NCBI GenBank assembly: GCA_021432655.1
Contig: MU271309.1
Coordinates: 62,001-97,875, forward strand
From: Atractiella rhizophila
Lineage: Eukaryota
Reading direction: 5' to 3'
DNA length: 35,875 nucleotides
The notes under the pieces were generated by a model. That model did not search any database. It was not told the DNA's origin and saw nothing but the letters and a program-made list of their open reading frames with translations. Position numbers and translations under genes: made by a program. Shown in pieces: positions 370 to 35,875 of this stretch. The first letter of the stretch is position 1. Each line of letters starts with the position of its first letter.

Positions 370-1433
370 TAGGGATGCACAACGGGGCGTGACGGGTCCG
401 GAACCCGTACTTCGTTCCCATCTTTTTTGGCGTGCGTGGAGCTCACTAAACACGTCTCGAACCGCACGCATTTTTGACGGGAACACGTGCGGCAGACATG
501 AAGAAGTGTTCCCGTCTTCGTACGCCAACACATCTCCTAACGTGGCTCCAGATTTCTATAGCTGTGCAATTTATGTAGCATCTTTTAGTCAACCAGGCCA
601 GGTAGGCTGGCTCATCAAGAACAAAGTGTCGATAGAAGGCAGCAAACCATCTTCCTCCAACAACTCTTGTTCTTCCTCACCATCGCAGCTTGACAGTACA
701 AAACGGTGGCAACACTCTCGTATTCAGCAAAACTTACGCAGAAGGCTAATCAGCATATGAAGGCGTTTCAAGAAGATGAGGACTTGCAACCAAATATCTG
801 ATTTAGTCTCCCTCCGCTGGTCTGGATGGAGGATCCTCTGGAATCTATCGTACAAGGTTGAAAACGGATTTGAAGGAGTGGTCTCAAATGGCAAGGGATA
901 TTCTGTCCATTCATGGTTTGGGTTTCCTTCATTCGTCTTCTTATTCAATTCTGAGGCTGATTATTCATTTTTAGGCTGTTCGGTAGCTGTGGAATGCATC
1001 TTCAGCGGAGCATGAGATATGACAGGGATCTGCCGCACACGCCTCAAGTCCAAGACTGTTCAGTCTCTCATGGTTCTTAAGGCTCAGCTATGATTGGAGA
1101 GAGATCCAAAGGCAAAGAAACTAAAGGCAGGCCTGGCTGCCATTGCGAAAGGAGCTTCAAGTTGACAGGTTGAAAAGTTCTTTATACATACATTCACATC
1201 TTGACTTCTCAGCTTCACTCAATGTGCTTTATTTTACATTATCTAGCCTAGTAATGTCAACATTGCATGTTATTACATGACGTGAGGCGTGTGCCGGCTA
1301 CAAACCCGTTACCGCCACCTTTGACGTACGACTCAGCAAATGGAACACGTCTCGCCGTACCCACCCGCATTCACTTGACATGACGAAGCTCACGTTGCCA
1401 CCTACACACGCCATGCCACGTTGTGCATCCCTA
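370..1433 (+). mobile_element. Non-autonomous (internally deleted) hAT DNA transposon, both ends intact
   Basis: TIR TAGGGATGCACAACG at 370-384 and its exact reverse complement at 1419-1433 (extends to 22 bp with 2 mismatches). Perfect 8-bp TSD ATAGAGGG at 362-369 and 1434-1441. Subterminal ACGGG/CCCGT motifs; contains a hAT C-terminal fragment. Confidence 0.95.
690..1165 (+). pseudogene. hAT transposase C-terminal dimerisation-domain remnant
   Basis: Reads DLKEWSQMARDILSIH, intron 916-974, then GCSVAVECIFSGA*DMTGICRTRLKSKTVQSLMVLK. This matches the hAT MARDxLxxP..SxxxERxFS..RxRL pattern but has in-frame stops. Confidence 0.88.
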
Positions 1434-7900: not shown

Positions 7901-8287
7901 TACTCGCTTCCGGATCCCATTGGACATTGAAGCTGATTCCGTCTGCGGTGTTACAGCTCAAAGTGATCACGGTCGACTTTGTCGAGAGGCAGAATTGATA
8001 ATTTGGGACGAAGTGGGAATGAGTCATCGATGGTGCTTTGAAGCAGTTGACCGGATGCTGAGAGATATATGTAAGGTGGATGTGCCTTTTGGTGGAGTTA
8101 TTTTGGTTCTTGGTGGTAAGTGAATCAAGTCAAAGAGTTCATGTCTGATAAATAATTAGGCGACATGCGACAATGCCTCTCAGTCATCCCCAAAGCTTCA
8201 CATGTGCAGATCGTCAATGCATGTGTCATCAACAGTCCCTTTTGGCCAGCAGTTCGAGTCCTCCCACTCACAGTAAATATGCGCCTG
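4920..8287 (+). pseudogene. Helitron RepHel (HUH replication initiator plus PIF1-like helicase), degenerate
   Basis: N-terminal YNRPT..EIAV..RDIVV..PLRFPLLFPYGEQGW; ILPSSHTGSP; FTYNPRWPEI; RPDLVSRVF. Rep motifs FQKRGLPHAHIL (HUH) and HINVE..KYLFKYIYKG. Intron 6781-6838. Walker A GPGGTGKT near 7768-7791; IIWDEVGM; PFGG..GDMRQ; ends at VNMRL. Several stops and frameshifts. Confidence 0.96.
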
Positions 8288-16189: not shown

Positions 16190-16651
16190 AACGACAAGGC
16201 CAGCACTTTCTTACACAGCAAAACTCATGCAGAAGGCCAATCAGCGAATCAAAGCAGTCTAGAAGGATGAGAACAAGCAACCCAATATCTGGTTTAGCCT
16301 TCCTCTGCAGGACTAGCCAACGGATCTCTTAGAGGTTTACCGAGCGAGGTCCAAGACTGACTTGAAAGAGTGGTCCCAAATGGCAAGGGATATTCTTTCT
16401 ATTCCTGGTTTGACTTTTACTATTATCTATTCTGGGTTTCAAGCTGACCAGCATGATTGCACAAAGGATGCTCTGTTGCTGTTGAGCATGTGTTCAGCAG
16501 AGCGCGTGACACGATCGGCATCTGTCGTGCATGCCTTAAACCTGACACCATCCAAGCTCTCATGGTTCTTAAGGCTCAGTTGAAGTTGGAGAGAGATGAG
16601 AAGACGAGGGAACTGAAGGTAGCCCTGGCTGACACTGCTCTAGCTCAATAA
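16190..16651 (+). pseudogene. hAT transposase C-terminal remnant related to the element at 370-1433
   Basis: LKEWSQMARDILSIP, intron 16408-16466 (same position and 59-nt length as 916-974), then GCSVAVEHVFSRARDTIGICRACLKPDTIQALMVLKAQL. Confidence 0.88.
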
Positions 16652-17201: not shown

Positions 17202-18191
17202 TATCTCTGTTTTCATTTCAATTTGAAGCCTTGCTCTTACATTGAGGTCTTGTCCGATCTTGATTTTGATTTATTGGTTTATATGCCCCTCCCCCCCTTT
17301 AGTCATCGCGACGTCAGTCATCCCTTCATCGCTATTGGGTACTGCATTTGGTTTCGTTAGGGGAAGTGATGTTGACTTTTGGTGATGTAGTTTACATTGG
17401 GTTCCCAGAGCTACGTTGACTACAGTCTGACAGCTCTTTAATATGACTACAATGACAATAACAAAAAACTTATAACAAAACGGAATGTACTTTTCTGCTT
17501 GGAGTGGTGCCTTTCTGCGTTCAAATAAGACATGAAAGGGGAGGGAAACATATTTGTTGACGCGCATATCAACTTCACAGCATCTGAGGCGTCATTTCGC
17601 CGCCTATCCAACCATCAGCTCCGCTCCTAAGTGTAGACAACAAACGATTTACCCTCGCTCTCTCTGTGCATATCTATCAGAATTTCGGCTGTTCTCTTGA
17701 CGATGTCTCCATCGGGCAAAGAAGCTGTATTGGCAGGGTCGAGGAAGAAGTCTCGAAGGTTTTCCCACGTTAGCAGTTGTACGTGACCACCTGGGTTGGA
17801 TGGATAGACGTATATGCCTTCGTGGGAGAAAGACAGGGGAGAAGGTTCTGTTTCTACATATGGAAAAGAAACTCAGCTTTTTGAGGAGGTGGGACGGAAA
17901 AGGCTCGCGAGAAAACAAGCTCATGAGTTTTCAGTGGCTGGAAATGCCTTTGGTGGTTGATCTTGCTGATTGCGATGTTTTGAGAGGCAATAGCTCGAGT
18001 AAGAGCCTGTTTATATGCAGTGTCGCTCGTTGAGCTCGTCTACAGTTCGTACGGGAGCTACGCGTGAGCGAATCACAGACAACGTCAGCTGACAGGTACA
18101 CCGCAGCAAACAAACCTCTAAACCTCTCAATGAAGAGAGCCTGAGTTGGGCTCATTACGTTGAATATGATAACCCCAAAGCATTAGTCTGT

Positions 18192-18223
18192 AAGTGTAAG
18201 ATGCCAGAAGTGTAAGATGCCAG
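18192..18223 (+). repeat. Tandem repeat, 16 bp x2 (AAGTGTAAGATGCCAG)
   Basis: Two exact copies read directly. Confidence 0.85.
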
Positions 18224-18569
18224 GGTGAGCTCACGCTGCATATCAACAACGGAGTGTGCAGACAAGTACAGAAGCAAAATTATTAAAGCGAAAATGCACA
18301 CATACGCAAGAACAAACGTTGGGCGCCAAACGGCGCCGTCGTTCCTCAGGCATCCCCCTGACGCCTGAAAGGAATTTTTTGCCCCTTGAACTGAACCACA
18401 GCGCGACTGTAGGGAGCGAGAGCTCGCCTATGGCGAGCACTATGAAACAAAATAGAGAAGATATCAACATGGTGAATGTGTGAGCCTTACATGATAAAAT
18501 GTATACTCTGACCAAGAGTCGAACCCCGTGAGCGGATTGCGTCGGGATCTGCCTCGGAGATGAACAGAC

Positions 18570-18681
18570 CAGGGGTCGGAGTCAGTCGGAGTTAAAACTG
18601 GTCGACCAGTTTTAGTTTTGCACTTCACAAACTGGTCGACCAGTTTTGGACCAGTTTTAACCCCGACGATCTCCTACCCTG
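18570..18681. repeat. Fold-back / MITE-like element with nested palindromes
   Basis: Perfect 22-bp palindrome TAAAACTGGTCGACCAGTTTTA (18593-18614) and an 18-bp copy (18629-18646). Outer imperfect inverted ends CAGGGGTCGGAG / CTCCTACCCTG. Confidence 0.7.
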
Positions 18682-18690
18682 ACGCGAATC

Positions 18691-19628
18691 ATGTTTGACG
18701 TTTGCTCAGCAGACACCTCAGCTGAACTCTCCAAACTTGCAGCCTCAGGCTCCCTTCAACCCCCTCGCAAGTTCATTCCTGTCACCCATCTCGACTTCTA
18801 TGGTGGCGACTTGGAAGCGGTCAATCCTGTAATCGTCTGTGATGGGATGCACACGTTTGGGTTGGAAGAGAAAGAGCCAGAGCAAGTGACTGGCACTAGG
18901 AAGAGGAAGAGGAGCACTGCAACTGTGCGACAATCAAACACTCAGAAGTGGCGCAATAGCGTGAAGGACTATGGAGATAATACGAGGATGGTGAGAGGAT
19001 TCAGAAAGATCGCTCCTTTTATTGACCATGACGCGCCGACCGAAGCTAGGCGTGTCAGCTCTTTGTTCCCTTCACATGTGACTAACTTTTGTTCACAGGC
19101 TGCATTCCACTTCTCTGAATCCCGACGCCCAGATGTACGCCTTTTCTTCCGTTCGTTCATTGGAAAGGCTAAGCACTCACACCCTTAATAGTGGAAATCC
19201 ACGCAAGAAGCGATGCGTGGTCAATGATCGTACCGATGTCCCAACCGATGACTCATTACAAAGTTCGTCTCTGCTACCCCTTGATAGCAATTTGCAGCTG
19301 ATTTTTATATATGTGGGAAAGTGAATCATTCCAATCGTGGAGATGACAGCAAAGAGCTTACTCGGTCCCTTGTATCCTCGATCGCGATCAAGCGGCAGCA
19401 GAACACGTTCGTCTTTATCCACACATGGCCACCAGATACTTATTTACAAATCTTTTCGGAAACAGATTGGCCGCTCGCCGATCGTGTGCCAAGAAACAGG
19501 AACATATCAGGTTGCTCGAGCAGGAGGTGAACAAGTTGATGCACGAGAGGGACACGTGGAAGCAGAAAGCTGAGATGTCCGAGGAGGAGTTACAGTGCGC
19601 CACTGGTGCAGACGCGCTCGGAGGGTGA
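18691..19628 (+). pseudogene. GCN4/CPC1-like bZIP transcription factor paralog, probably degenerate
   Basis: Splicing intron 19407-19465 gives IAIKRQQNTLAARRSCAKKQEHIRLLEQEVNKLMHERDTWKQKA (compare GCN4 KRARNTEAARRSRARK). The invariant N-x7-R arginine is TGT (Cys) at 19485-19487. Upstream exon has GFRK..DAPT. Confidence 0.8.
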
Positions 19629-20432
19629 AGCAACAGCTATATGGGATTTTTTTCCTTATGGCGCGAGGACGCCATTTTGTCTTGTGAAGGACTTGGAGAA
19701 AGAATGGCTGTTTAACGAGCGTTTGTGTTGGTGGTGGGATTTTAGTGTAATAAGATGTACAACCCTCATCATTAGCCCAGTGCTCAATCCAAAGTGGGAG
19801 TGTGGTGCAGTCCCTCACCACTGCAACCAGATGCCTTCCCTTGCCGGATGCCTTCCACAACAAACCAACTTGAAACCTCATCCTGATCCCATTCGCTGTT
19901 ACGTCAACCCGTGTCAGAAATTCACAAGCAGCCATGTCCCCTCCCACCAACGATGATTCAGTTGGCGGTCTCGTCCGACACTCCTTAACGTTCTGGCATT
20001 TGACTGAATCTGTCCTTCGAGATGACGAGTAGAAACAGATAGAGGATGTTGATTCCAAGGGTCTAAAGGAATGCATTACAACGAAGTTATAATTGGTTTT
20101 TTATATCTTGAGGAACTTGGCAAAACAAGAGAAACGGCAAAGGGGAAAGAAAACTAGAGCCACAAATGACAGTGGCACGAATGCAGCTTAAAACGGTGCC
20201 AAACTCTGACAGAGGATGGTACAATCGATTTCATGGTGCGGAAGTGAAAGAGACAAATTGCAGATAGCAGTGGAGAAAGAGAGTTTTTCGTACTCCTCGG
20301 AGACACCGATCCTCATCTCCTCCGCTCAACTCTCCATCCGGCCCTCTCCGTCAAACTCCATACCATTCCACAACGCCAGTGAACAGCTCAGCATCGTTTT
20401 CTTTTCACTCGCCGCCTTTTAGACGTCCATGG

Positions 20433-20675
20433 TGACAAATGTATTAGCGCTGCGAAGTGCGAGATAACAATGAGTATATGTTGCATTTAGTATGTAAGGA
20501 AACTACATTACCTGCGAAGTGCGAGATAACAATGAGTATAAGTCTCGCACTTGCAGGTTTACAAGCTTTTATAACAGAGAGATACCTGTGGCAAAAGATT
20601 GGCCACAGTTCCAGAAAGTGCTCGAAGGAAACTAAACGCGCAAGTGGCGAAAGGAGGAGGCGCACGATTCTGTCA
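20433..20675 (-). mobile_element. Solo LTR, family A, copy 2 (243 bp)
   Basis: TGACA...TGTCA ends; perfect 5-bp TSD CATGG at 20428-20432 and 20676-20680; internal 29-bp direct repeat and a hairpin. Confidence 0.92.
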
Positions 20676-21111
20676 CATGGCCCCATCAAACTGCAGCTAC
20701 TATTGGATTTGCCACCTCAGGCCACCAACGCACTTGCAATGGGACGCTAATTCCGACCGCTCATTAGAGCAGGGTTCAAGTCCAGGGGCAAATGCAATTT
20801 TTTCACCTCCTCAGAATAAAATTTCACCGCAGGCTCTGAAAGGGGCACACATGTGCAATAAGATGGTGTAATTCATTTCGTTCTAAAGTTGATAGTGAGG
20901 GAGCATTGAGCGTTCAAAAGTGCATCTTATGACTAGCGTTTTTAGAGGAAAGGCTTCATTTAGGATCAGAAAGAATGCCCAATCTGTAATGCCTTTGTCA
21001 CGAAAGGCCATCTCTTCAAGCACCAACGATTCAATTACCGCTGCCGGTGGAGCACGAGTAGATCTGACGGGTACGTTCGCTGCTTTGCTAAGCCATGTTG
21101 CTCCGCTAAAC

Positions 21112-21127
21112 TAGGCTTGGTATGTGG
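21112..21127 (+). mobile_element. Displaced hAT TIR (5' end of the element at 21393-30454)
   Basis: TAGGCTTGGTATGTGG versus TAGGCTTGGTACATGG at 21393. It is preceded by CGCTAAAC, the reverse complement of GTTTAGCG that precedes the other TIR. Confidence 0.85.
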
Positions 21128-21132
21128 TTTTG

Positions 21133-21308
21133 TGTGAGACTCTACTGCAAAAAGCGAGTTCCTTTAGCTCGACTAGAGCGAGAACTAAGAGGCTCAATCA
21201 ATAAATGAGAGCTTAAACGAGAAGGAGAGACAGGAACCAGCTTATGCTAGCCACATTGAAGTGTAGGGCCGCTTATCAAGCTATCCGGGTTGACCATTGT
21301 ATCTCACA
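21133..21308 (-). mobile_element. LTR-like element, family B, short copy (176 bp)
   Basis: TGTGAGA...TCTCACA ends; reverse-complement match to 30460-30482 and 30974-31106. Confidence 0.85.
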
Positions 21309-21644
21309 ACTGTAGTGACCGTGTGCTGGGGGTTCCGGAGGAGGAAGTTGTTCGGCGAATGGTATGTTTTACCCACGCTCCTGCGTTTAGCGTAGGCTTG
21401 GTACATGGGGAACCCGTGGCCGCAGAGGTTGTTCCGGGAGGTTTTGGTGCTCTGATGCCATCCCGTACCCGCCCTCGAACCCTCAAGGGTTTCCCCGTCA
21501 TTGCAGGGCATGACCGGGGGATAGCTGGGAGGGGACGGGAGTCAACGGGTCCACGGGACATAGACAGGATGGGGAGGGGGCAATATTATCATTATCAAAC
21601 ACTTCTGCAACTCATTCACCTTTGTCAATCAATCAATTAATCAA

Positions 21645-24400
21645 TCACCATCCTTCCGTTCTGTGCTCCGCCTCCGCCGCCGTCTTTCTTGCCACCTCCG
21701 CCGCCTTCCTCTTCCTCTTGTCATTCTGTTTCACGGCTTCAAATAACTCCTTCATTGGAGGCATGAATCCATCCTGCTCCCACAGCTTGAGCATCATAGC
21801 CAAACGAAAGATGGGGTCCGACAATTGATGACAGAAGTAAGAAACTGTGAAACGACCCGCTGAAAAGGCACGCTCAACATCCACCGAAGTTGCTAGCAAG
21901 TTCAATGAAAGTAGGAAACAGAAGTGAAACTGCATACCTGGGACTGCCATAATATCCAGAGCCATCTCGTGGAACTTCAAACGGAAATGCTCCTTCGCAT
22001 GCTTTGCTTCCCGCCATTGCTGAAAGTGGTACTTGAGGCCGTCCAATTCTGTTGTCCCAAAACCATCCTGTAGGGTCTTGATAGGCAATGGGACACCTTT
22101 GAAGAATTCAGCAAGGTAGTCGGCAGTAGAGTTGTCGTCCGCATCATCGATCATTGCGTCGAGTGCGTACAAGGTCCGAGCCTTCTTTCGGGGACGTGGC
22201 ACAGATGTAGATGCCTGTGAGCAGCGGCTCCTGCCTCAGTTGTGGAAAGCAAAGCATACAGGTTGGACGCACTGGGTTACCCATTTCGACCTTATAATGC
22301 TCTCGCTGAAACTCCTGCAAGCTATCCATGGCTTCCGTTATCCAAGCCTCTTCCCAATCCAACTTTTTATGGTATGCAGCACGACGGTTGGGATGAAGCC
22401 CTAGAGTATCTGTCAGCTTCAGTGCTGAAATGTCTGAGTAGGAAAATATGCAAAGAGCCCATAGATAGATCTTAGAATCTTCGACTACTTTCAGAAAATA
22501 TTTGTCCAAAACTGTCTGTGCAGTTGCAGCACCGGCTTGGATGGCAGCATGCTTCTCAGGAATGTGAATTTCGCCGGCAAGCTCGTAAGTTTCGTAAAGG
22601 CGAGAAATGTGGACGCTGATATTATTGAAGAGGGGAATGATGCTGGCTAAATTAGAGAAGTTGGCCCTCCACATCCAGTCCGTTGCCTGTTTGAAACAGC
22701 TAGGACAAAGTATTAGCTTCTTAGATCAAAGACAAATAAACAGGAAAGACACACTTGCAGAGTCGGATTTGCTTGTTCCATAAGTTCCCACTCCGTTCTC
22801 GTTAATCAGCAGCGTTCAAGTTTTAAGCTTGGTTTACCACAAAGATTTCGCAGTGCCTCTTTCAAGTCTGATAGTCGATCAATCATCGCACCTTCACCAT
22901 TCCAACGTGTGGGACAAGCCTTGACAAGGTGTACAGGAGATAGAAACTTCAGAGGTCCTTCGGGATCCTCCTTTTGAAGAGCGACAATCTCATCATCAAG
23001 TTTGCTTCTGAGCCCATCGTTCAATGCCGTCCTTTGGGCCAGACCAGCAAGCTATTTCATTAATTAAAGGCAGAATTCAAGGAAAGTGAATTGTTGAAAG
23101 ACAATCACTCAGAGGCGTACCTTTGTGAGCATGAAACGAGACTCTAATTCCTCCTTCGCAGAACAACTTGCTTTCGACGCAGCCTCTTCTTGAACTGCAT
23201 CAATTGCCACCGCCTGTGCTTGGGTTTCTTCACTTAGATCTACGGCAGAAGCATCAGAAAGTTACAGCATTTGACTAAACTATACCTTCTAGTTCTGCCG
23301 CTTCTGTGAACCCTGACTCTCTGAGTTCTGCTTCTAATCGTGCTAATGCGACTTCATCCGCCATGATGGAAGTCCCAATACCTGCCACAACCCGCTTCTT
23401 CATAACTGCCTTCTTGAACCTGCTCAAGAATCCCTAGACATTTTACTATCAATCAGTCCACCTTTCCATTTTACAGATGAAACTATTACCTTTGCTACTA
23501 AGTTGAGTATTTGGTCTAAGCATCTCACCCGTAAATCCGCTCTCCAAAGAAGCATCTTCGGATACTTGACCTTGTTTTCCATTGCCAGCGTAAATGTATC
23601 GTTGTTAGATGCGCTGTCGCATGCTGGAGCCATGACCTGTGCACCACGTTAACTCAGGAAGAAAGACTCTATGCACAGACGTAAACACGCACCCTCTCAC
23701 GCATCATATGAATCCAACAGGTCATAGACCAAAGCAGCAATGTTATCTCCCGAATGAGAATCAAGAACACTGTTGCTGTGTTGGTTGCCACAATGAGGAG
23801 ATTCATACGGAATGAAACCAAGAGCAAGTTTCTTCCCATCCCCACGTTCACGGAAGTGAAGGTACACGAGGACATAGCTAAAGCCTTGAGGAGCTGTCCA
23901 ACCATCCAACATAATGAAAAATTTCCCAGGAGCAGCATCGATAGTGCGTTAGTATTCTACGTGAGATTAGAACAGGGTACATACCGAAATTCTTGCCTTC
24001 ACCTTCGCACACACATACCCCTGTAAGTATTTCGCATCCTCTACTATTCTGTGACGATCAATGTTTGGAACACTCTGTGATCCGGGCGTTCATGATAATG
24101 AACATAAACACTCGGCTTGTCGCTGTTCTTGTGAACTTTGGACCTTCCTCAGCGCTGGATGTCGAAATCTATTGTGATATCAGCAGGAAAATTAGGATGA
24201 AGTATCGGAACAGACCAACCAATGATCTCGTCATCCTTCCAACCTTCAAAGCTGGTGTCCATCTCGAAGTCGACCCCTCGTGGTAGTTCTCTCGAGCATG
24301 CTTTCGAGGGACCTGCGAATGGAGTCTGATTCACTGAGATCATCATCTGACGAGTCAAGCTTAATCGCAGTGAGTTTTGAGGATCAGGTGTTCGCAGGGG
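21645..24400 (-). pseudogene. hAT transposase, degenerate, multi-intron
   Basis: LDGWTAP (D1); CDSASNN (D2); RCLDQILNL (CxxH His lost); KACPTRWN; LHP; EMALDIMAVP..ATSVDVERAFSAGR (E). Confidence 0.93.
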
Positions 24401-25242
24401 GGCTGATGCCCTGTCAAGTTCGGTTTGGGATTTTGGACGATTTGGGACGATTCTGGCTTTATTAGGGAACAACTGGGAGGCGCTGCAGGAGCCGTGTGGC
24501 TGCGCGTGCCGCAGCGTCAAACGATGATGGGCTCGATCATAAAGATGAGATTTGGGGCTGGATTTGGAGGGGAATTGGAGTTTTTGGGACAGCAGTGAGC
24601 GTTACTGGTTATCAGATATATCAGAAGTGGTGACATTGCCTTTTTTGCATGGGCTACTAAGTGAGTACATCTATCTTGTCTCAACCTCATTCGGCTTTCG
24701 CATAGCAACAATGCTCCCGAATTGGGGTCAACAGAAAGAGACGCAAGAGCCTAGAGGCTACAATGAAAAGTGCGTCGTTCTCATAGGCAGCGTGTGTACA
24801 TTAACTGGATGTTGCACCTCCTCCTTATCCTCCGGTCAGCTTATGTCCCAGTCCGTTTCATACTCTGATAGCGCTGGGAGTCTCTAGTAGGTTGTATTTG
24901 CGATCTTCTTCTTCCCTCCTGTGACTCTGGTCTCATATTTATTGCAGTAGGCTCCTCTGCCATGACCATGGTGGTCACCACCAAACGACTATATTTAATG
25001 ACCACGCCTGGATAATGCCGGTCAGTGGTCTGCTCATCGTTCGAAGCGGCTTGCTGATAAACTTGGACATTGCTACACACAGAGGATGCAGCCAGCACCA
25101 GATGGAGACTACACTGTCGCTGCGCCAAATTGATTCTTCGCTCTAAGGTGTGTCGTCCTTTCTCTTCTCCTACCGACTTGCTCACGCTGGACGCTCTAGC
25201 AGCACGCATTCCCCTTTGCGAAACCCCAACCCCCCGCAACCG

Positions 25243-25259
25243 CCCCCCCCCCCCCCCCC
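25243..25259 (+). repeat. Poly-C tract (C17) in a C-rich segment
   Basis: Read directly. Confidence 0.9.
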
Positions 25260-25474
25260 GGGGCCCCGGCCACGAAACCTGATTTTGAGGGAAGCACTCA
25301 GTGTGATTCGGGCTATGTTCAAAATCAACGGACTAAGTGTACTTGAGCTAGAAAGATTGTGGCTTACGTAGATCAGAACAGCGGTCGCTTGACAGTTAGG
25401 AAATGGAGATTAGGACTATCTCGCAGATGAAGTGAGAGTCAAAGTATTACAATCTAGACCGTTGGAATGTACAA

Positions 25475-26519
25475 TCAGTCTGTTTCAATTCCTGAGCCAC
25501 TCAACCTTTCCACAATGAACCAATCACCATACCACGGCCTCGGAATAATGGCCACAACTTCCTCTACCTGTTTAACACTAATTACCTCAAAGTCACCTGG
25601 AAGTGCAGGCTGGCACGTTATAAGGACTCCGAAAGGGTCATGTCGTCGATAACCTCGGTAAGGATGGATTAGCGCAAGTGAGTGGGACAGAGTCCCAACC
25701 TTTAGTTGTAGGAAATATATAACTTCGGCGTACTCAATTGAAATGACAGGAGGTCCAGCACGGTCAACCTCGGGGAAAGTAAGCCGCTTGTATTTGACAT
25801 TGCGGCTGATGCAAACGTCCTCAGAGGGCCGCTGGACCTCTTTCCACTTTGAGCGGACAATCTCATTATTTGGTAGCTGCAATCTTGCCCATTTGACAAA
25901 GCAACCATTCCAAGCATCAGATAGGTGCCAGTGTGAAAGATAAGCCTCGACTGCTGAGCGCTCGTCAGAACAGGATAGTTGCACATCCGCCTCACGAGCA
26001 CGTAGGAAGCAGAAAGAATTTCCGAGAGGGGCGGCACCGCGGGGAGGAGGTCTTTGAGTCTGAGGAAGGATAAGGGCTGCATCGATAGAGCGGATTGCCT
26101 GACACTGAGCTTGGCGCATTGTTTCCTGTGCCAGATTTTCATAAGGTCTTGAATGCTGACGGATTCGGGATCCTAACAGTCCAATCGTGCGCTCCAACAT
26201 CCACTGTGTGATGTAGATGAAGGGTCCCACTCGTCGTGTTTGTTCACAAAGGTGGAGTAGTTTGTGAACAGAAGGACGGCAAAAATGAAGCCTTTTGATG
26301 TCGTTCTGATAGTAAATCTGTTCAAATTCTACGACAAATTCGATTATCAGCTTCTCCACTGAATTGAGCACTCAATAAACCAGCATCCCTAGACTTTTCC
26401 AAAAGCCGTTGAGCCCTCTCATGTTTAAAAGCAGTTGAGCGCTTGACCTCAGTCAATATTCCTCCACAAAATATCTCACAGTCACAATAATACGTCCCTT
26501 CATTTGCCGTTGTATCCAT
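25475..26519 (-). pseudogene. CACTA/Tnp2-like transposase with the central catalytic region deleted
   Basis: N-terminal YCDCEIFCGG..VKRSTAFKH (C-x-C..C..H) joined out of frame near 26375 to the C-terminal FEQIYYQ..SVHKLLHL..GPFIYITQWMLERTIG..PYENL..KWARLQLPN..SRNVK..YAEVIYF. HxLxH..GP..ER is typical of Tnp2-type transposases. Confidence 0.75.
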
Positions 26520-26661
26520 TCTATCTAAATCATTTGGGTTACACTGACCAATATCTGTTTTTACATAGTTCGCTTCCGAATACATACCATGTGATGCACT
26601 CGAGCGAGACTCCTTAAATCCTTCTTTCAAAATCAGCATTATCTATCCTTCCTTCCAACCC

Positions 26662-28980
26662 ATGGATCCCATGGACGACATTCTTTTTCCTGGAGCTCAA
26701 AATCATTTGAGCGAAATAAGCGGTTCAAAGGGGAAAGCAGAATCAGGTAATGTTTTTTGGCATATCTCTTTTCTTTTTCTCTTCTGACTGAATTACCAGG
26801 CAATCAGCTCGGTGAGCTTGATGACCTATTCATGGGCAGGCGTGCAGACGAAATGTGGAGTCAAGATGCTAATACATGGCCATCCACACCGTCCTTCAAT
26901 TTCAAGCCGAATTTGCCGCCCCAGAGCTTTTCCCCTACTGAGATGGCTGCAATTCGAAAGGCTAACCAGACGACGCTCTTGGAAGCTGGGAATACTGTTG
27001 TGATAGAACTTCTGTTGAGGATTAGGTATTTAGAAGGGAAGATTGAGACCTTGTGAGTCTTTCTTCTTTATGTAGTTCTAAGCGGGCCAATGGGAACATT
27101 TATTGCAGGGAAAAAACAGTTGCCGTTCCGCTCAACTCTCAATCACCCATCATTACGGCAGGACCATCCACTTCTTCCACACCATCCTCACTCTCCAACA
27201 CTCCCACACCATCCTCACTCTCCAACACTCTCCGCTCACGCCTCCTTTGTGGTACAGGAATAATCACCGTGCCATCCAGTTGGCAGCAATCTGACTATGC
27301 GTATCAGTCGATTTCGCCGACACGTCCGGACACGATTCCAGAGCATCTTTGGCTGGAAAACCTTTGGAATGCATGGAAAAAGGCACAGAAGGAGTCCGGT
27401 AAGAAACCAGGGAAGCTGACCTGGCTAGTCGACGAAGAATGTAACCGCCCTCACCGATTTCCTGTCACAAACAAGCTATCGCCTTTCGGTGTGGAGAAAT
27501 GTCCATCGAACGGGTCAGGAAGGAATGATTGGTGTTATGGAATCTCTTCACCCTGAGCTCACACTGTGTGGTGATCATTTCAAAGCCCAATTCTTCCTGC
27601 AGGAACAGTTGAACGAGGTCCATAAGTTATGGAGAGAGGAGGATGGATTGGAGCCCAAATTTACGAGGCTGAAAGGGGAGGCACCTGACGGATTAGAATC
27701 CTCATTAGGGTCTCGACCATCGACTCCTTTGCCAGCTTCTTGTGCTGGTGTCACACTAAAGTCGTATTTCTCTCTATTCACAATGGAGATTGAGCTTATC
27801 TTAGTCTCCTGCACACCTGTTTGGACAGGCGGAAGCCTAATAAGCGAGCGCGAACAAGGTATGCCATCTTCTAGGCATCCACATCTAGCGTGACACTAAA
27901 CAGGGGAACAGCTTTCATGCATCATTGCAAACCGCGGAGACGATTGCCTTGAGAGATGAGAATCTGAATAGCGAGCCTGGTGAACCCGATACCATGGAAG
28001 TGGACATTGGGAGTGGTATGCTTGGTTCAATGTGTTCATAAATTCGGTTGATTCAGTGTGTATAGCCCAACCTGGTTACCTTGGTCACTCTACTTCAGTA
28101 GGCTCTACACTGTTCTGCAATGCCTTTCGAATCATCGCTAGGTCATGCTACCATCTCAAAATAGTGGGAATTCCTCGAACCCAGACACAAATGGAGATGG
28201 CTTAACAAGAACTCCAGGTGTTTGCCGTCCGTCCTTTTGCGAGCACACACCCCCCTTATCCCAGGCACTTCTAATTCCTGCAACTCCCTTGCCTGTACCA
28301 CCGGCACCTCCAGATGCCCCATCTCTCGCCACACCTCCGCGTCACTTATCCTGTCCACAGGCGACTAACCAACGTCCTCTTCTTGGTTTTGTTGATGAAA
28401 TCCGGGATGACCCTTACACATTGTGTTCTTTCGTTCCATCGACCGTGCTTTACTTCTCTTTCTCATTATCCTAAAGGGTCTTACTCCACCAGCACGAGCT
28501 ACGACGCCACCAGGAGTCTCAGTCAGTCATAATAAAGTTAGGAAAGGACCCGGGTGATTTTGGTAAGCACCTTGTTTCCATCTTCTGTGCAGTTCCATGA
28601 CTGACAAAAGACGTCGCCTCACTGTTCCTGTCAAGTCGTAGCCTCCACAAGCAGAATTCCACTCACACCTGGAGCCATTCCTATCCACATTACGGCCTGC
28701 AGGAACAACTCAGAAACCACAATTGGGAACGGAATGGACCTAAACCCGCTTAGCGGAACATCGACAACTAGATTCCCACTCGCACCTCCACTCCCAATCA
28801 TCCCCCTCCACGTTGGAGCCCATCAGAACAATTCCGAACATACCAACAGGGACAGAATCAATGTGAAGCCACCAGGCATCTCCCCAGTAAGTTTTTACTA
28901 ACTGCTTACTCTTACCATTCTGACAGCGGGCAATCAATGTTAGCATCCGATGGTGCTGACAGCGTCTCAGGATCACAATC
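26662..28980 (+). pseudogene. Multi-exon accessory gene of the 5.3 kb element, function unknown
   Basis: ATG at 26662; intron 26747-26799; coiled-coil-like IELLLRIRYLEGKIETL; S/T/P-rich linker; WNAWKK; ESLHPELTLCGDHFKA; low-complexity tail. The 3' limit is uncertain. Confidence 0.5.
27177..27230 (+). repeat. Tandem repeat, 27 bp x2, in frame (TPSSLSNT)
   Basis: CCACACCATCCTCACTCTCCAACACTC twice. Confidence 0.9.
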
Positions 28981-29253
28981 ACAATAAAGGGCAGTACGTC
29001 TGTTTCTATATCATGTCAAGGACACAAGACTGATGCTAGTCTGTGGCAGGGCTGCATTTCTTCGTTATCGACAGAACGAATGGCGAGTAGAAAATCCGGG
29101 TGCCCCGCTCCCTCTCCCAGCGATGTTCAAAGCCGAGTACAAACAGCTCAGTTCAAAGGAGAAAAATGTATGCCTTCGCACTCCATAGAGCCCGTTGTGA
29201 TGTTTGAGCTACCTTTAGAGCTGGAACAAACTGGCCAGTCAACAACAGGCTCC

Positions 29254-29289
29254 CTCAACGGCCTCAACGAACTCAACGGCCCCAACGAC
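29254..29289 (+). repeat. Degenerate tandem repeat, 9 bp x4 (CTCAACGGC)
   Basis: CTCAACGGC CTCAACGAA CTCAACGGC CCCAACGAC. Confidence 0.8.
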
Positions 29290-30459
29290 CTCTGTTCTCG
29301 CAATGCAATCTTCCGGACCGAATCCCTCTTCCCCAAGACCCACGTTGCATCATCAATCGTTTCCTCATCCTGCCAAGTGATGTTACTGTTGGCACTATGG
29401 ATCCCGCTGTGATTTAGGAGAGAGATTACTATGGTATGGGAGTATTGGGCAATGATATATTTGATTGCAGAGAAGGAGCTCTACCCAAAATGTATATATT
29501 ACTCCCACTTTCATCCACGGATCCCAAAAGAGTCCCAAAAGCGCCTTTAGCTGTGCATTGCAACTGAGTAGACTCATTGCACCAGAAATCCCAAAACCTC
29601 CAGGACAGGTCCAAAAAGTCTACGTGATGGGACAATTTGGGAAGGTTCCCAAAACCGTTCCAAACTGTCCCAAGACCCCAAACCGAACTTGACAGGGGCT
29701 GATGACTGGTGTCTGGGCCCACAGAATCTTTTCGAGTGTACTTGGACATGATGTGATGTCTGACAAGAAAACAATGAGTGATTGCCAGGAGCTCATTCCT
29801 GTTTTTATACCTTTGCAGGTCAGGTTACGGCCGATAGAGACCATGCTCCGCTGATTGCAAGGTCAATCAGACAATTTCATCAGCAGAGCACCTTCCATGG
29901 AAGCAGTATCTCATCCGCGATGGACTCGTCCGAAGCAGGCACTGAAATTCACAATGTTATAGCAAGGGCAGACACATTCAAATCCATTTGCACGACTCAG
30001 CAACTGAGGAGCAATTGGGTAGTATGCATTCAACTTCATGGAGAACATCGTCGGAATCACATAATTCTGTTAATATTGTCATCCGGGTTCTTTCAGCAAC
30101 AAATTGTATACTAAGCTTTTCATAGCTCTTTCTCCAATGCCCGCGTAGAATCGAGTAGAAGGCATCAAATTCTCTCCCCAGTTCAACCAATGACATAAAA
30201 GAAGGAGTCTCGGCCTTTACTTTGAAACGGGGGCGAAGCATACATCTTCTTCATGAGAGGATCCAGCGTGAACTGGTTGCACTCATAGCTTAGTTGCACA
30301 GTTTCGGGTCAAACCCGCGGGTTGCCACAGGTTTCGAATTGGCAAATGTGTTTCCCATCCCCTTCCCTTCCCCGGAAGGACTTTCCCACCGAACCCGTGG
30401 GATTCCCATGAAGGGAAGGGGATGGGCGGGCCATAGGTTCTGACGGGATCCATCCAAAA

Positions 30460-31106
30460 TGTGAGATACAATGGTCAACCCGCTCACATGCGGCAATACC
30501 TTCCTATTCTGGAAGCGGCTCCTGCCTAACTTGGAAGTCACATTGACCACTGTATACCTCACAACTCCCCCGTCTCTCTACACCTCTCCTGTCGGCTCCA
30601 AGCGTGTACAATTGATCGGGAGAAGAAGGGAAGATAACTACATGGTATCTTAGCCTTATCCAGAAGCTGGAAGGCAAGATCCGTCGATTCCCTGGTGAGC
30701 CTTGTTTGATTCCCTTCAGCTTCCTCTTCGTTCCATGCTTTCCGACTATTCTATATTTCTATCTACTCATGTATTATGGGTTTTCCCGCGATGTTGTTTG
30801 ATCTTTTATCCGATTCATTGGCCTATAAAGAGGCCTCACTTGTTAATGTAAAATCATCTTATTCCTCATCATCTTACTTCACACTCACAGCAGAAAGCGC
30901 GGTAAGAATCGAGGTAAGCTCCCCGGGCCGAAGAAGCGCCCCTGTAAGATTCATTCTCTTCGTTCTGAGACCAGATAGCTTGATAAGCGGCCCTACACTT
31001 CAGTGTGGCTTGCATAAGCTGGTTCCTGTCTCTCCTTCTCGTTTAAGCCTCTTAGTTCTCGCTCTATCGAGCTAAAGGAACTCGCTTTTTGCAGTAGAGT
31101 CTCACA
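30460..31106 (+). mobile_element. LTR-like element, family B, long copy (647 bp)
   Basis: TGTGAGA...TCTCACA ends; TATAAAG near 30824; both ends shared, inverted, with 21133-21308. Confidence 0.82.
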
Positions 31107-33329
31107 CGGAACTGTGTATCGTATTGGGCTGTACAGTAAATCCCAGTGCCAGTTTGACAAAACAGTTGGACTGGGACCTGGAGTTTCAGTCCCATGGAGT
31201 TGCGGTTTGGAAGATGTCAAAACTTAGTAAAACTGATAAAACTGGTTTAAAACCTATTTGCGAGTGTCGTAAATAATGCGGCTCCCGTTTGCGTGTGGAC
31301 GCGCACCTTCTGCACAGAACAGCAGCAGTCAAGCTCTTCGAGAAGTATTAGCTTGCCACCAACTTCCATTAATCTGATTGTTTTGCTATCTTTTCATCAT
31401 CCCCCAGCGCCTCCTGCCGGTCGCTTTGCCATTGTCACAACGGCTCGCTTTGAGAGAAGAAGAGCAGTGGTATTTCATTCAACTATTCAGTCAAATCAAC
31501 AATTACCTTCTTTCCAATGCTTTCCTCCTTTGCCCCTCCTTTGCAGTCACAATCACCTTCTTTGACCTGGTTGGCATGGCCACGGCCATGGTGGTTATGG
31601 AACTGGTGCTGGTGTTGGAAAGGAAGGAGATCTGGGAAGAAAGGGAGGCGATCTGGCGTCCCAACTGTGCAACCTGCATATTCGTGCGGTTGCTGGTTGC
31701 TGCGATAGAGCTGGGAGAATGGGGAATGATCGGAAACTGTGAGTTGCTTTAGCTGCTGATGACATATGTGCTTGGAGACTGGAACGTACATTTATGGGCA
31801 ATCCCTTTTTTAACATTATCCATTCTCCTCCGTGGTCTCGAAGAATGTGAAGAGTCAGAATGCCATTATCAAGGTGAAAGATAAGCTTGTAGCCACAGAG
31901 TACACAGTGGGCTGTATCTACGAAAAAATTCTGCCATGACATTCATCGACTGTTTCCTGGTCAGAGTTCTTGACCTTGTAGAACACGCCAAAGATTGAAT
32001 TCCTTCTCCACACGCCTACGTAAGCAGAACATTGCATTGAAAGAGCGACGTACTGTTTTGTCTTTCTCATATTGATATAGTTGTGGTCGACATGGTGAAT
32101 TACAGGCATTGCGGTATTCTGTAATAACTGGAAAGAGCACTGAAATGACGGATGGTGGAGGGAATTGTGAAAAGACATCAGAGTCTATCATCTTTTATAT
32201 AGCACTTGCATCCGAAGAACTTCCAGTCTTTAAATATGAGCCAGGGAAGTTCAGTACCCATTTTTCTCTCCTTCTTGATTCTAGGTTGTCTCCCTGGCTA
32301 GCACTGACGTTGTACATAAGGTCAGTGCTTCCGTACTACTTCAAGGTCCACGGAAAGTATTACGGAGCCACAGGAGACTCGAGGAGGCACCGAAAGTGTC
32401 AAGGAACTCCCAAACATTGCAAAGGCGTAAAGTAGAACACATCCATGAACTTCTACAGGCAAAAAGTATTGTGGAATTGTGGAAGCTGGTTAACCCACAT
32501 TTTGTAAGTTTTACCTGCTTTAAAAGACGAAACGACAGCGTGACACGATGCAACCAACAACCACAAGTCGCCGACCTCCTAGTGTGCGAAACACTCCCCG
32601 AAGGAGTGATCCTGTCTACATCTACGAAGCGCCAAATGAGGACGCCCGTCGGAAGTTGCCTCAACCCACCCCATCACCTTCTCGGCCAGTTGCCCCCCTA
32701 ACTCAACACGCAACTTCAACTATTGCTAGTGCTAGTTCGGGGAAGGTGTTCTCGATTTTTGCCCCTTGTGCTCCAGCGATCAGCACCGGAGAAATGGGGT
32801 CAATTTCTTTGGGTCCGGTCAGTTTTTCTATTCCCCATTGACACCATGGATGTTGATAACTCTTACATTTCCAAGGCACAACAACTTACACCAACTACTA
32901 CCTCCGATGGCGTTACACGGTCAAGTCACACAGAAGCCATGAGAGGCACTGGTAGCAATAGCATGAGGAGGAAGAGGGAAGCTGTCCAACCAGCAGCAGA
33001 CGTATGCTCCTTGTTTCCTATGCACTCCGAGCCCGCTTTCTAACATGATTCCAGCGTCTGACGAAGAAACATAAGAAGTGTGGCGCTCAGGTATCTGTTT
33101 CATCAATTTCAATTGCCTAAGCATAATATATTCAAAAACAGCGCTCAAGTAATGCGGTTTTACCTCTTGACGATAATGAAGGCCTCAATGCGGCTGTGGC
33201 TGAGGGATCGGATGATAACATCCCGTCATTTCCTTCAAAGCGGAGGGAAAAGTACTATGAGTGGTATAAGGTTCGCATCCTCCTTATGTTTGATGCTTTT
33301 GCTAAGTGGGATGGCTGGGTCACTCGTCT

Positions 33330-35875
33330 AGGAACTCTGCCAGTTCAATGGATTCAGCGAGGCAAAAGGTAAAATGGTTCCGAAAATTGAGTAAGAGTGT
33401 ATCTTTTGCAGGTGCGATCATCACTTGCTCTGTTTTATAGTCTTCACTAATTTCAGTACTGATATTTGTCTGTCAGTGTAAAGATAATCATCGAGAAAGG
33501 GAACACCGGAAACTTGAACAAACACATCCAGTGCTGGCGTCACCGTTACTCGACGGCTGCTCAGAAGCTCAACTGCGCGCCAAAGAAGCCTGAGCCCAAG
33601 TTGAAGAAAGGCTCTATTGTGAAGTACAAAATTGGGAGGGACAGACTTATGGATGAGTTCAAGGTGTGTTTTACTTAAGTCGCTGGTTGTTTTCAATGCT
33701 GAGTCCTCCTGCTTAGTTGGTCAACAATAGAATTGCACTTACTTGGGATTCTTGGACTCCCAAAAGTATGCAGTACTCATTCATGGCCGTCTTTGCCATT
33801 TGGATAGATGCCATGTGGAACATCAAGGTAAACTATTCTCAGCTCTCATTTCCATGTTAGTTATCTAATCAAGCTCATTGATAGATCCGCTTGCTACGTT
33901 TCCCTCGACTCCTCGGTCGACATTCAGCTGTCCGGTCTAGTCTTGTCATATGGAATGTGCTCCGAAGCCGTGGCATCCTCGAACGGGTATGTCTTCTCTC
34001 TATTACCATTTTTCTGGTTCTCAGGACTAGCCAAATATCGACACTCAGCGGAGACAACACAAACGTCAATCCTGCGACTATAAGGAGTCTTGGGGGACTC
34101 TATTACGATGCCAATCTCACGACTTTCGATGCTGACAATGCCTTCATTGGTTGTCCACTCCATCGAATACACCCCACTGTCTCCAAAGCCCTTCGACATC
34201 TCGGTCACATTGACGATGAAACGACTGATTCCTTCGTGACCATGCGTCAAGCTATGCTCTCCGTTATCTTTGAGGTCGAAGAAGAAGATCCTGGTCAGGA
34301 GCTAGCGAATAATGAGGAAGATACTGGCCCAGCACACATTGATTCGGATATTCAGGAAGAAAAGGATGTTCAAGAGGCGAATGATGTTATTGCGATGGAG
34401 ATGGATATTCGGGAACCAGTAAATGGTGCTGGGAGGGGGTTGCGATCCATGGTGCCACCTCGCCTGAGAATGGCCAACCGCTCTCTCAGTTGGAATCGGC
34501 TGGGCAGGAAGGAGTTGAGACTCCGCTCAAACCACTGGAGAAGGTGAGCTTATGTGTCTAAGCAAAATGATCTTCGGATAGATATCTGACATGTTCTCAG
34601 CTTGTACTCGTTTCTGGCGCTATTGTTCGAACGCCTCAACACCGTGAAGCGTTCTCCACAATTGCTAAACTCAGCCTCCCTCCTCCAATCGCGACCCTCT
34701 TGCCAGAACATCCCGTAGACAACCGGTGGAATGGTACCCATAATTATCTGGATTGGGCAATAATCATTAAAGCAGTATGTCTTGATCTCTCCTTCCGACT
34801 TCCATGGTATTGGGCTCAAGATGCAAGGAACAGGCACTCCAGATTCTTTGCCGCAAGAATGACTTCCGCCGTTATGCACTCACTGACCGGGAGTGCATCA
34901 TGTTAGAAACATTGCTCAAGGAAATACTTAACGTAAGTCATGTTTCAGCCCTCCGAACCAGAAACTGCAAACTAACTTGCCAAAAGCCGTTTCATACCGC
35001 AACTGGGTTTCTATCCCAAGAAACGGAACCGACTTTGCCTGTCATATACATCGCTTACTCTACGCTCATTGCCCACTTTCGTCACGTCTTGGCAACGGGC
35101 AGACCAGCTGAGCTGGAGTGGGACTCTACTTTGAAGGAATGTGCAGTTAAGATGGCAGCAAGGTTAGAAGAAGATTGGACCTATTACAAGAAGAATAAGA
35201 ATGTTCTGTTGGCAGCATGTGCGTATTATTCTTTGCGAAGCCTCACTTTTCACTTTCTTTGATTCCATCCACTGATGATTCTTCTACAGATTTGCACCCC
35301 GGCATCCGCTCCACGTTCCTCCAAAATGAACAGATGTTCACCCACGCTGAGGCTGTAGAGGTCCATCGAATGATTGATACCACATTCGCGCAATACGCTG
35401 CGAAACATGCCACCTTGCTGCCAGCCATCCCGTCTCACCAACATACCTCGCCTTCCGTGATTCCTGTTTCAGGGACTATGTTTCAACACCGCTCTCACAT
35501 GTCAGCAAGCTCAACTCCCTCTTTCCGCAACTGAGCAGCAGCGGTACGACATCCTCATGCTCGAGCCGTACAAGAAGGATACCTCAATTTTATTGTGGTA
35601 TAAGGTATTTTACTTCGCCTCTACTCTTGGCATCCATGTTGACGTCTTCTTCTCAGACACATGAGAAAGATTTCCCTATACACTCATTGATGGCCCGAGA
35701 CATCTTCCCCAACCCCGCCTCCAGCATGATACCGGAGTCATCTTTCTCCATGTCAAGAACGACAACAAGGGATAACCACGGGAAACTCAAATCACAATCA
35801 GTCTCGACTTTCATCAGCCTGAGACTGTGGAGAAGAGAGGGTTTGATTACTTTGGAAGGTGATGAGGAGGAGATG
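33330..35875 (+). pseudogene. hAT transposase, nearly full length, degenerate, running to the window end
   Basis: BED-finger-like GNTGNLNKHI..H; DSWT..YSFMAV (D1); SGDNTNVN (D2); GCPLHRIH (CxxH); VDNRWNGT; KPFHTAT..PTLP; LHP; FP..LMARDIFPNPASSMIPESSFS (E). Frameshifts and introns. Confidence 0.92.

What the first reader, a model, noticed from the sequence alone, without database searches (positions are those of the whole stretch)
21104..31111. ~9.15 kb inversion between inverted LTR-like copies, supported by two independent displaced TSDs
Seen: two hAT TIRs (21112, 21393) face the same way, and their 8-bp flanks CGCTAAAC and GTTTAGCG are reverse complements. The short LTR's outer flank TTTTG (21128-21132) is the reverse complement of the long LTR's inner flank CAAAA (30455-30459). 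Flipping 21309-30459 restores inverted TIRs, a direct 8-bp TSD and a direct 5-bp TSD, and returns the subterminal repeats at 30290-30454 to their TIR. It yields a ~3.8 kb hAT once nested inserts are removed. The second LTR site shows no TSD (ACAGT versus CGGAA), so the mechanism may not be simple crossover between two independent insertions.
Basis: partly seen in the sequence, partly recalled or inferred. Interest (0 to 1): 0.8.

Follow-up and report, generated by a model that had tools for sequence, protein, structure and literature searches.

The report
Small inversion splitting a fungal transposon
A 9-kb block of dead transposon DNA in a fungal genome was flipped between two opposite-facing copies of a short retrotransposon-like repeat, a clean but ordinary example of a known way in which repeats rearrange chromosomes.

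Summary
The inversion is real in the assembly and its direction is now shown. Seven of seven related hAT copies with an aligned 5' end join TIR..TTTTG directly to the sequence now at 30454 on the minus strand. A sister copy on contig C203, about 3% diverged, has the left flank running into the hAT body unflipped. The LTR-like family makes 5-bp TSDs (10 of 15 other two-ended copies perfect). The second site lacks a TSD because DNA was lost there: the right flank starts 22 nt inside another repeat, and neither reciprocal junction was found. The two LTR copies are each other's closest relatives (2 substitutions in 133). Best reading: crossover with conversion between inverted solo LTRs, plus a separate deletion at site B (0.62). 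Rivals are integration-coupled inversion (0.15), template switching (0.13) and misassembly (0.07). No raw reads were available to test the breakpoints. All but 84 bp of the flipped block is transposon DNA. This is the known 'exchanged TSD' kind of inversion; interest is low.

The parts
17388..20758 (+). Left flank: a low-copy repeated host segment. The C203 copy joins its end (20758) to the hAT body at 30274 on the minus strand through a shared ACC, which is the unflipped orientation.
21104..21111 (+). hAT 8-bp TSD, outer copy (CGCTAAAC)
21112..21132 (+). First 21 nt of the hAT 5' end (11-bp TIR 21112-21122), left outside the inversion; 21128-21132 is one copy of the 5-bp LTR TSD. It matches 18 of 21 to the 5' end of copy L091 and 14 of 21 to this element's own 3' end.
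21133..21308 (-). Short LTR-like copy (first 23 nt fused to last ~153 nt of the unit); left breakpoint repeat
21309..21384 (-). Single-copy DNA that lay just beyond the hAT 3' end; its end reads ACAGT against the LTR 5' end (left side of site B)
21385..21392 (-). hAT 8-bp TSD, displaced and inverted copy
21393..24408 (-). hAT body and 3' end (TIR 21393-21403); broken, intron-split transposase; 419-bp deletion at 24083/24084 relative to intact copies
24409..29697 (.). Nested 5289-bp TIR element (ends CCCTGTCAAG) with a 7-bp TSD GCTGATG at 24402-24408 and 29698-29704; holds a remnant with a weak DUF4218 match and a second, intron-rich gene
29705..30454 (-). hAT 5' subterminal region, carried to the far end of the inversion
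30455..30459 (-). 5-bp LTR TSD, displaced and inverted copy (CAAAA on +)
30460..31106 (+). Long LTR-like copy, 647 bp, TG..CA ends, 7-bp terminal inverted repeat, private 19-bp and 1-bp deletions; right breakpoint repeat
31107..32912 (+). Right flank: a second repeated element whose first 22 nt (present in the C25 and C103 copies) are missing here (right side of site B)

Best explanation
A real intrachromosomal inversion of about 9.15 kb (21309-30459), made by non-allelic homologous recombination between two oppositely oriented copies of a ~670-bp solo-LTR-like family. Steps: (1) a hAT inserted at 21104-21111 with an 8-bp TSD (shown); (2) the region was duplicated to C203 (shown; order inferred from ~3% divergence); (3) a 5.3-kb TIR element inserted into the hAT (shown; C203 has the empty site); (4) one LTR copy inserted 21 nt inside the hAT 5' end with TSD TTTTG, site A (shown); (5) an opposite-facing copy sat 84 bp beyond the hAT 3' end, site B. 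It is a hybrid left by a deletion between two same-orientation insertions, which removed the TSD partners and the first 22 nt of the neighbouring repeat (loss shown, cause inferred). The 23+153-nt fusion of the short copy may be the scar of that same deletion (inferred); (6) crossover with conversion between A and B flipped the block and swapped the flanks (outcome shown, mechanism inferred).
For: Family join confirmed in 7 of 7 copies with an aligned 5' end. 6 of 7 copies with both TIRs have perfect 8-bp TSDs. C203 carries the left flank (3.3% substitutions over 2.6 kb) and the hAT pieces (3.1% and 3.4%) in unflipped order. The LTR family makes 5-bp TSDs: 10 of 15 other two-ended copies perfect, 1 with one mismatch. 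All four LTR-host junctions are exactly at element ends. Site B loss: 2 of 2 paralogues of the right flank carry 22 more nt upstream, and no reciprocal junction was found. The two copies differ by 2 substitutions in 133; only 13 of 325 pairs among other copies are that close, as conversion at a crossover would give. The class is described: exchanged TSDs (PMC2775673), inversion by crossover between inverted Ty elements (PMC9879454), TSD-less solo LTRs from unequal recombination (PMC7251063).
Against: It needs about three insertions of one modest family (46 matches) near each other, or one irregular integration. The diagnostic test for ectopic recombination, chimeric copies, is not met: the long copy shows no switch of nearest relative and the copies look like sisters, which PMC2775673 associates with hybrid-element insertion. 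Site B has no exchanged TSD. No internal retrotransposon region was found for this LTR family, so 'LTR' rests on structure. The C203 copy has itself lost both the TIR and the TSD by deletion, and two closer copies of the left flank (C2, C262; C2 at 1.9%) diverge at about 20775 and carry no hAT there. No listed contig piece bridged 21308/21309, 30459/30460 or 31106/31107 (26 pieces shown, 1604 not shown).
Confidence: 0.62

Rival explanations
1. The inversion was made by the element's own enzyme. Either two sister LTR cDNAs integrated crosswise at sites A and B, or the unit is a non-autonomous cut-and-paste element: it first made an adjacent deletion at B (precise end against a truncated neighbour) and then an inversion to A by hybrid-element insertion.
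For: The copies are near-identical sisters sharing a rare allele (1 of 26 other copies). All four ends are precise. Loss at B begins exactly at an element end. No internal retro region was found. PMC2775673 states that hybrid-element insertion gives identical rather than chimeric copies. Irregular retroviral integrations with flanking deletions and inversions are described (PMC5041404).
Against: The unit looks like an LTR: TG..CA ends, 5-bp TSD, a TATA-like box followed by a pyrimidine-rich tract (seen; the LTR reading of these is recalled), and only a 7-bp terminal inverted repeat. Conversion over a 650-bp repeat would also make sisters. In PMC5041404 the irregular end is often truncated, whereas here both B ends are whole. 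Most other two-ended copies have normal TSDs.
Confidence: 0.15
2. One LTR at site A only; a single break-repair or replication template-switch event copied it to both ends of the flipped block, deleted DNA at B and produced the short fused copy.
For: It explains sister copies, the missing TSD, the 23+153 fusion and the lost 22 nt in one event. The 14 nt after the long copy match the site-A flank at 7 of 14 and the intact family's flank at 10 of 14 (noticed after the fact). The LTR 5' end has an inverted partner at 30543-30555 that could form a hairpin.
Against: It needs two switches exactly at the two element ends, which is what integrases do and repair rarely does (inference). The sequence that originally followed ACAGT is unknown, so microhomology there could not be tested.
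Confidence: 0.13
3. Assembly artefact: the block was flipped, or the long LTR mis-joined, at the shared repeat.
For: The breakpoints lie in inverted repeats. The assembly is fragmented (1998 contigs) and the window ends at its contig's end. Raw reads were not available, and three of four junctions had no listed bridging contig.
Against: The longest exact match between the two copies is 40 nt. The long copy is at most 94% identical to any other copy. The window has no N. A mis-join should leave reciprocal junctions elsewhere, and none was found. One contig of run X4 covers 20831-21179 with 3 other letters and no gap, across the left junction (weak, being a contig and not a read).
Confidence: 0.07

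Closest known systems
Galileo-generated inversion 2z3 of Drosophila buzzatii (Delprat et al., PMC2775673; passages read)
   Same: Two copies of one TE family in opposite orientation at the breakpoints, with a TSD copy displaced and reverse-complemented.
   Different: There both TSDs are exchanged and both copies are chimeric; here only site A shows the exchange and chimerism was not seen. That is a cytologically mapped inversion made by a DNA transposon; this is 9 kb, LTR-like and inside a TE nest.
Ty1-Ty1 and delta-delta recombination in Saccharomyces cerevisiae (PMC9879454; passages read)
   Same: Crossover between inverted LTR-element copies on one arm inverts the DNA between them; direct copies give deletions and solo LTRs.
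   Different: There the inversions are described between full Ty elements after induced breaks; here the repeats are solo-LTR-sized, one is reduced to 176 bp, and the event is historical.
Solo LTRs without TSD from unequal recombination (PMC7251063; passages read)
   Same: A solo LTR with precise ends and non-matching flanks, as inferred for site B before the flip.
   Different: Described for plant genomes; here the deleted interval and the partner insertion could not be recovered.
Hybrid-element insertion / aberrant transposition (as described in PMC2775673) and irregular retroviral integration (PMC5041404)
   Same: Inverted, near-identical copies at the breakpoints, with nearby deletion.
   Different: The first needs a cut-and-paste transposase, not shown for this family. 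The second often truncates one element end, which is not seen at site B.

Membership tests
TE-mediated inversion by ectopic recombination | Homologous copies in opposite orientation at both breakpoints | tested here: met
TE-mediated inversion by ectopic recombination | Exchanged TSD at the first insertion site | tested here: met
   TTTTG / CAAAA
TE-mediated inversion by ectopic recombination | Exchanged TSD at the second insertion site | tested here: not met
   ACAGT versus CGGAA; loss of 22 nt of the neighbour; no reciprocal junction found. This lowers the claim of a simple two-insertion crossover, not the claim of an inversion.
TE-mediated inversion by ectopic recombination | Both copies chimeric | tested here: inconclusive
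   Only about 176 nt are comparable; the copies are sisters (2 of 133) and no switch of nearest relative is seen in the long copy
TE-mediated inversion by ectopic recombination | Non-inverted arrangement exists as outgroup | tested here: met
   Paralogue on C203 and 7 family copies; no allelic unflipped copy from another strain was found
hAT superfamily (the split element) | 8-bp TSD | tested here: met
   This copy; 6 of 7 two-ended relatives perfect
hAT superfamily (the split element) | Short TIRs | tested here: met
   11 bp identical at both ends here; the same TIR in relatives
hAT superfamily (the split element) | hAT transposase with C-terminal dimerisation domain (PF05699) | tested here: inconclusive
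   Atlas feature hits at 0.94-0.95 to PF05699 clusters, 10 of 10 best family hits agree; direct Pfam scans of the intron-split pieces gave no hAT hit
Solo LTR of an LTR retrotransposon (the breakpoint repeat) | TG..CA ends and 4-6 bp TSD | tested here: met
Solo LTR of an LTR retrotransposon (the breakpoint repeat) | A parent element with the same LTR, PBS, PPT and gag-pol | tested here: inconclusive
   None among the fetched copies. A truncated Copia on C197 and C4 lies between the two halves of an old copy and seems nested in it, not its parent. Only the best 40 of 55 candidates were scored.
CMCT / EnSpm-CACTA (the nested element) | CA..TG ends in most cases and 2-5 bp TSD (PMC12730594) | tested here: not met
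   CCC..GGG ends and a 7-bp TSD
CMCT / EnSpm-CACTA (the nested element) | Tnp2-type transposase | tested here: inconclusive
   DUF4218 at E 2.7e-5, below the curated cut-off (its link to CACTA elements is recalled); Atlas hits are unnamed fungal clusters

The most novel reading that the evidence does not exclude
The inversion was written during integration itself, without homologous recombination: two sister LTR cDNAs were joined crosswise at sites about 9 kb apart, or the element's chromosomal ends were re-used by its own enzyme, first for an adjacent deletion and then for an inversion. That would be a retroelement counterpart of hybrid-element insertion in a fungus.
Probability: 0.12. Interest if true: 0.6.

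Novelty: new member of a known kind. Interest (0 to 1): 0.25.

Why it matters
It shows that repeats of 650 bp or less can flip kilobase blocks inside fungal transposon nests, and that this can kill a DNA transposon by parting one end from its body. It is a tidy case for dating nested events from TSDs and paralogues. It matters little for host biology: apart from 84 bp, the block is transposon DNA. It would matter more only if the integration-coupled reading held.

Tried and rejected
(1) Reciprocal junctions for site B: the start of the right-flank repeat occurs exactly only on C25 and C103 (2 exact of 9 matches at up to 1 mismatch). LTR end followed by ACAGT: 0 matches. 0 of 21 5' flanks and 0 of 34 3' flanks among fetched loci fit. 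An incomplete assembly weakens these blanks. (2) What followed ACAGT originally: 21309-21392 is single-copy; a translated search with the adjoining frame found only itself; two metagenome pattern scans found 0. (3) An open frame runs on both sides of the hAT site (26 and 65 codons) with no Pfam hit; not treated as a gene. (4) Target preference of the LTR for DNA-transposon ends (both sites lie 21-22 nt inside an element): not seen by eye in the 20-nt flanks listed; rejected. (5) Copia on C197 and C4 as parent of the LTR: its own leader differs and it appears nested; rejected. (6) Mosaic structure of the long copy: not found. (7) Read check: all four runs are contigs; X1 and X2 are one sample and may be the assembly's source; X3 holds a small share; no opposite-strand joint between 21132 and 30459 among the 15 joints listed, 26 not shown. 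Inconclusive. (8) C2 and C262 as outgroups: they leave the window's sequence at about 20775 and say nothing about orientation. (9) Earlier scan notes near this place, by words or by LTR sequence: none.
Full report
Setting. The window is the last 35,875 bases of contig C130 of a 51-Mb eukaryotic assembly in 1998 contigs. It is a nest of transposon remnants, with a PIF1-helicase match at 6826-7995. A protein in the window falls nearest a cluster that is mostly Basidiomycota, so I call the host a fungus.

Observation. The 11-mer TAGGCTTGGTA lies at 21112 and 21393 on the same strand. CGCTAAAC lies at 21104 and, reverse-complemented, at 21385. A 176-bp copy (21133-21308, minus) and a 647-bp copy (30460-31106, plus) of one repeat face each other; the short one is the first 23 nt joined to the last ~153 nt. 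TTTTG outside the short copy is the reverse complement of CAAAA inside the long one. The other two flanks (ACAGT, CGGAA) do not match. The block is 9151 bp and the hAT pieces add up to 3787 bp.

The split element. Searches of the own genome found the family. Of eight fetched full-region copies, seven have both TIRs; they are 4275-4299 bp long and six have a perfect 8-bp TSD, while L091 does not. All seven begin like L091, TAGGCTTGGTACACGGTTTTGGATTCCGTC. So the 21 nt at 21112-21132 (18 of 21 identical to L091, 14 of 21 to this copy's own 3' end) belong directly in front of the sequence now at 30454 on the minus strand. The window pieces then follow the intact copy L086 in order: 30452-29693, 24408-24084, a 419-bp gap, 24083-21392. 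The transposase C-terminus resembles PF05699 clusters by Atlas features, but direct Pfam scans of the intron-split pieces gave no hAT hit.

Direction of the change. Contig C203 carries a sister of the whole region. It matches window 17388-19924 with 3.3% substitutions and the hAT pieces with 3.1% and 3.4%, so flank and hAT were copied together. In C203 the flank at 20758 joins the hAT at 30274 on the minus strand through a shared ACC and then runs 30277-29695, 24408-24084. That is the unflipped orientation, shortened by a deletion. C203 lacks the nested element and keeps part of the 419 bp. Against this: C203 has lost the TIR and TSD themselves, and two closer copies of the flank (C2, C262; C2 at 1.9%) leave the window's sequence at about 20775 and hold no hAT there.

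The breakpoint repeat. It has 46 matches in the genome. Of 15 other copies with both ends scored, 10 have a perfect 5-bp TSD, 1 has one mismatch and 4 have two or more. L008 adds another perfect case, and the L029 and L030 flanks look like one shared insertion with a TSD offset by one base. No parent with an internal region was found. A truncated Copia (gag, integrase and RT domains) on C197 and C4 sits between the two halves of an old copy and appears nested in it. 'Solo LTR' therefore rests on TG..CA ends, the TSD length and a TATA-like box; the last is my reading from recall.

Site B. Both paralogues of the right flank (C25, C103) start 22 nt further upstream at a shared end with unrelated DNA beyond it. 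In the window those 22 nt are gone and the LTR end abuts the remainder. Neither reciprocal junction was found. DNA of unknown length was thus lost at B. The simplest source is two same-orientation insertions fused by a deletion, which is how TSD-less solo LTRs are said to arise (PMC7251063, passages). The 23+153 fusion of the short copy may be that scar. This step is inferred.

Relationship of the two copies. In the shared part they differ by 2 substitutions in 133 and are each other's nearest relatives; 13 of 325 pairs among the other copies are that close. They share one allele seen in only 1 of 26 others. The long copy shows no switch of nearest relative. Delprat et al. (PMC2775673, passages; its Figure S1 not seen) use chimeric versus identical copies to separate ectopic recombination from hybrid-element insertion. 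By that test this case is not shown to be recombination. For a repeat this short, conversion at the crossover would also homogenise the copies (inference), so the test does not decide. Rough order from substitutions: hAT insertion, C203 duplication (~3.2%), nested element (1.9-2.6% to its nearest copies), LTR pair (~1.5%). The counts are small.

Misassembly. The longest exact match between the copies is 40 nt, the long copy is at most 94% identical to others, and the window has no N. Four public runs were laid, all as contigs. One X4 contig covers 20831-21179 with three other letters and no gap. No listed piece bridges the other three junctions, but only 26 pieces were shown and 1604 were not. 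The artefact reading is unlikely but not excluded.

Mechanism. Best: crossover with conversion between inverted solo LTRs after or alongside a deletion at B (0.62). Rivals: inversion made by the element's own enzyme (0.15), one template-switch repair event (0.13), misassembly (0.07). Shown: the inversion's outline and direction, the TSD exchange at A, the loss at B. Inferred: how B lost its TSD and which machinery made the flip.

Comparison. It works like the Galileo 2z3 inversion and like inversion between inverted Ty elements (PMC9879454, passages). It fails one defining feature of the simple case, the second exchanged TSD. TE-linked inversion breakpoints are also reported in cod (10.1101/2025.01.09.631634, passages). 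Irregular integrations with deletions and inversions are known for retroviruses (PMC5041404, passages). Crossed synchronous L1 insertions appear in 10.1101/2024.08.27.596794 (listing and start of abstract only). Seven paper searches were read as listings only and were not aimed at this locus, so I make no claim that it is unpublished. No supplements were opened.

Verdict. Observation confirmed, interpretation supported, a new instance of a known kind. Only 84 bp of the block is not transposon DNA. Interest 0.25.

Noticed in passing
window 24409-29697: TIR element with CCC..GGG ends and a 7-bp TSD (empty site on C203). A left end on C1892 and a right end on C773 also have matching 7-nt flanks (pairing across contigs is inferred). 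Weak DUF4218 match. PMC12730594 gives 2-5 bp TSDs and mostly CA..TG ends for CMCT elements. 13 ends found in the genome, one preceded by GACAGGG as if in tandem (L137).
   Followed up: partly
window 26892-29698: Run X4 contigs skip many 44-75 nt stretches, most with GT..AG ends, so a gene of the nested element family appears to be spliced. The run's type is not on record and the contigs may come from other copies.
   Followed up: no
window 31107-35875; L095, L106 (C103): C103 shares the first 92 nt of the right flank but carries window 33297-34699 in the opposite orientation: either both ends of that element are alike or there is a second rearrangement. The frames near 34786-35259 look hAT-like to me from recall; Pfam gave no such hit.
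   Followed up: partly
window 30460-30570: The first ~20 nt of the LTR-like unit have an inverted partner about 85-105 nt in, present in 7 of 8 copies printed; a possible 5' hairpin.
   Followed up: partly
window 20433-20675 and 20048-20212: Two small insertions in the left flank: a 243-bp high-copy repeat flanked by CATG-like duplications, and a 165-bp unit that occurs as a direct pair about 480 bp apart on C203, like a TRIM LTR. Both are absent from the C203 sister flank.
   Followed up: no
L156 (C294), L145/L157 (C197), L150/L158 (C4): Copies of the LTR-like unit are interrupted at about position 190-195 in several contigs; on C197 and C4 by a truncated Copia whose leader has a repeated block around a GT..AG stretch, like the module in earlier notes.
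   Followed up: partly
window 370-1433: A 28-nt inverted pair (370-397, 1406-1433) starting TAGGG bounds a ~1.06-kb unit, part of which recurs at 16201-16638.
   Followed up: no
L024/L025, L152/L153, L121/L123: Several multi-kb blocks occur on two contigs at 98-99% identity or with identical match scores (C6/C294, C81/C5, C2/C262): recent segmental copies, large mobile units or haplotypes.
   Followed up: no
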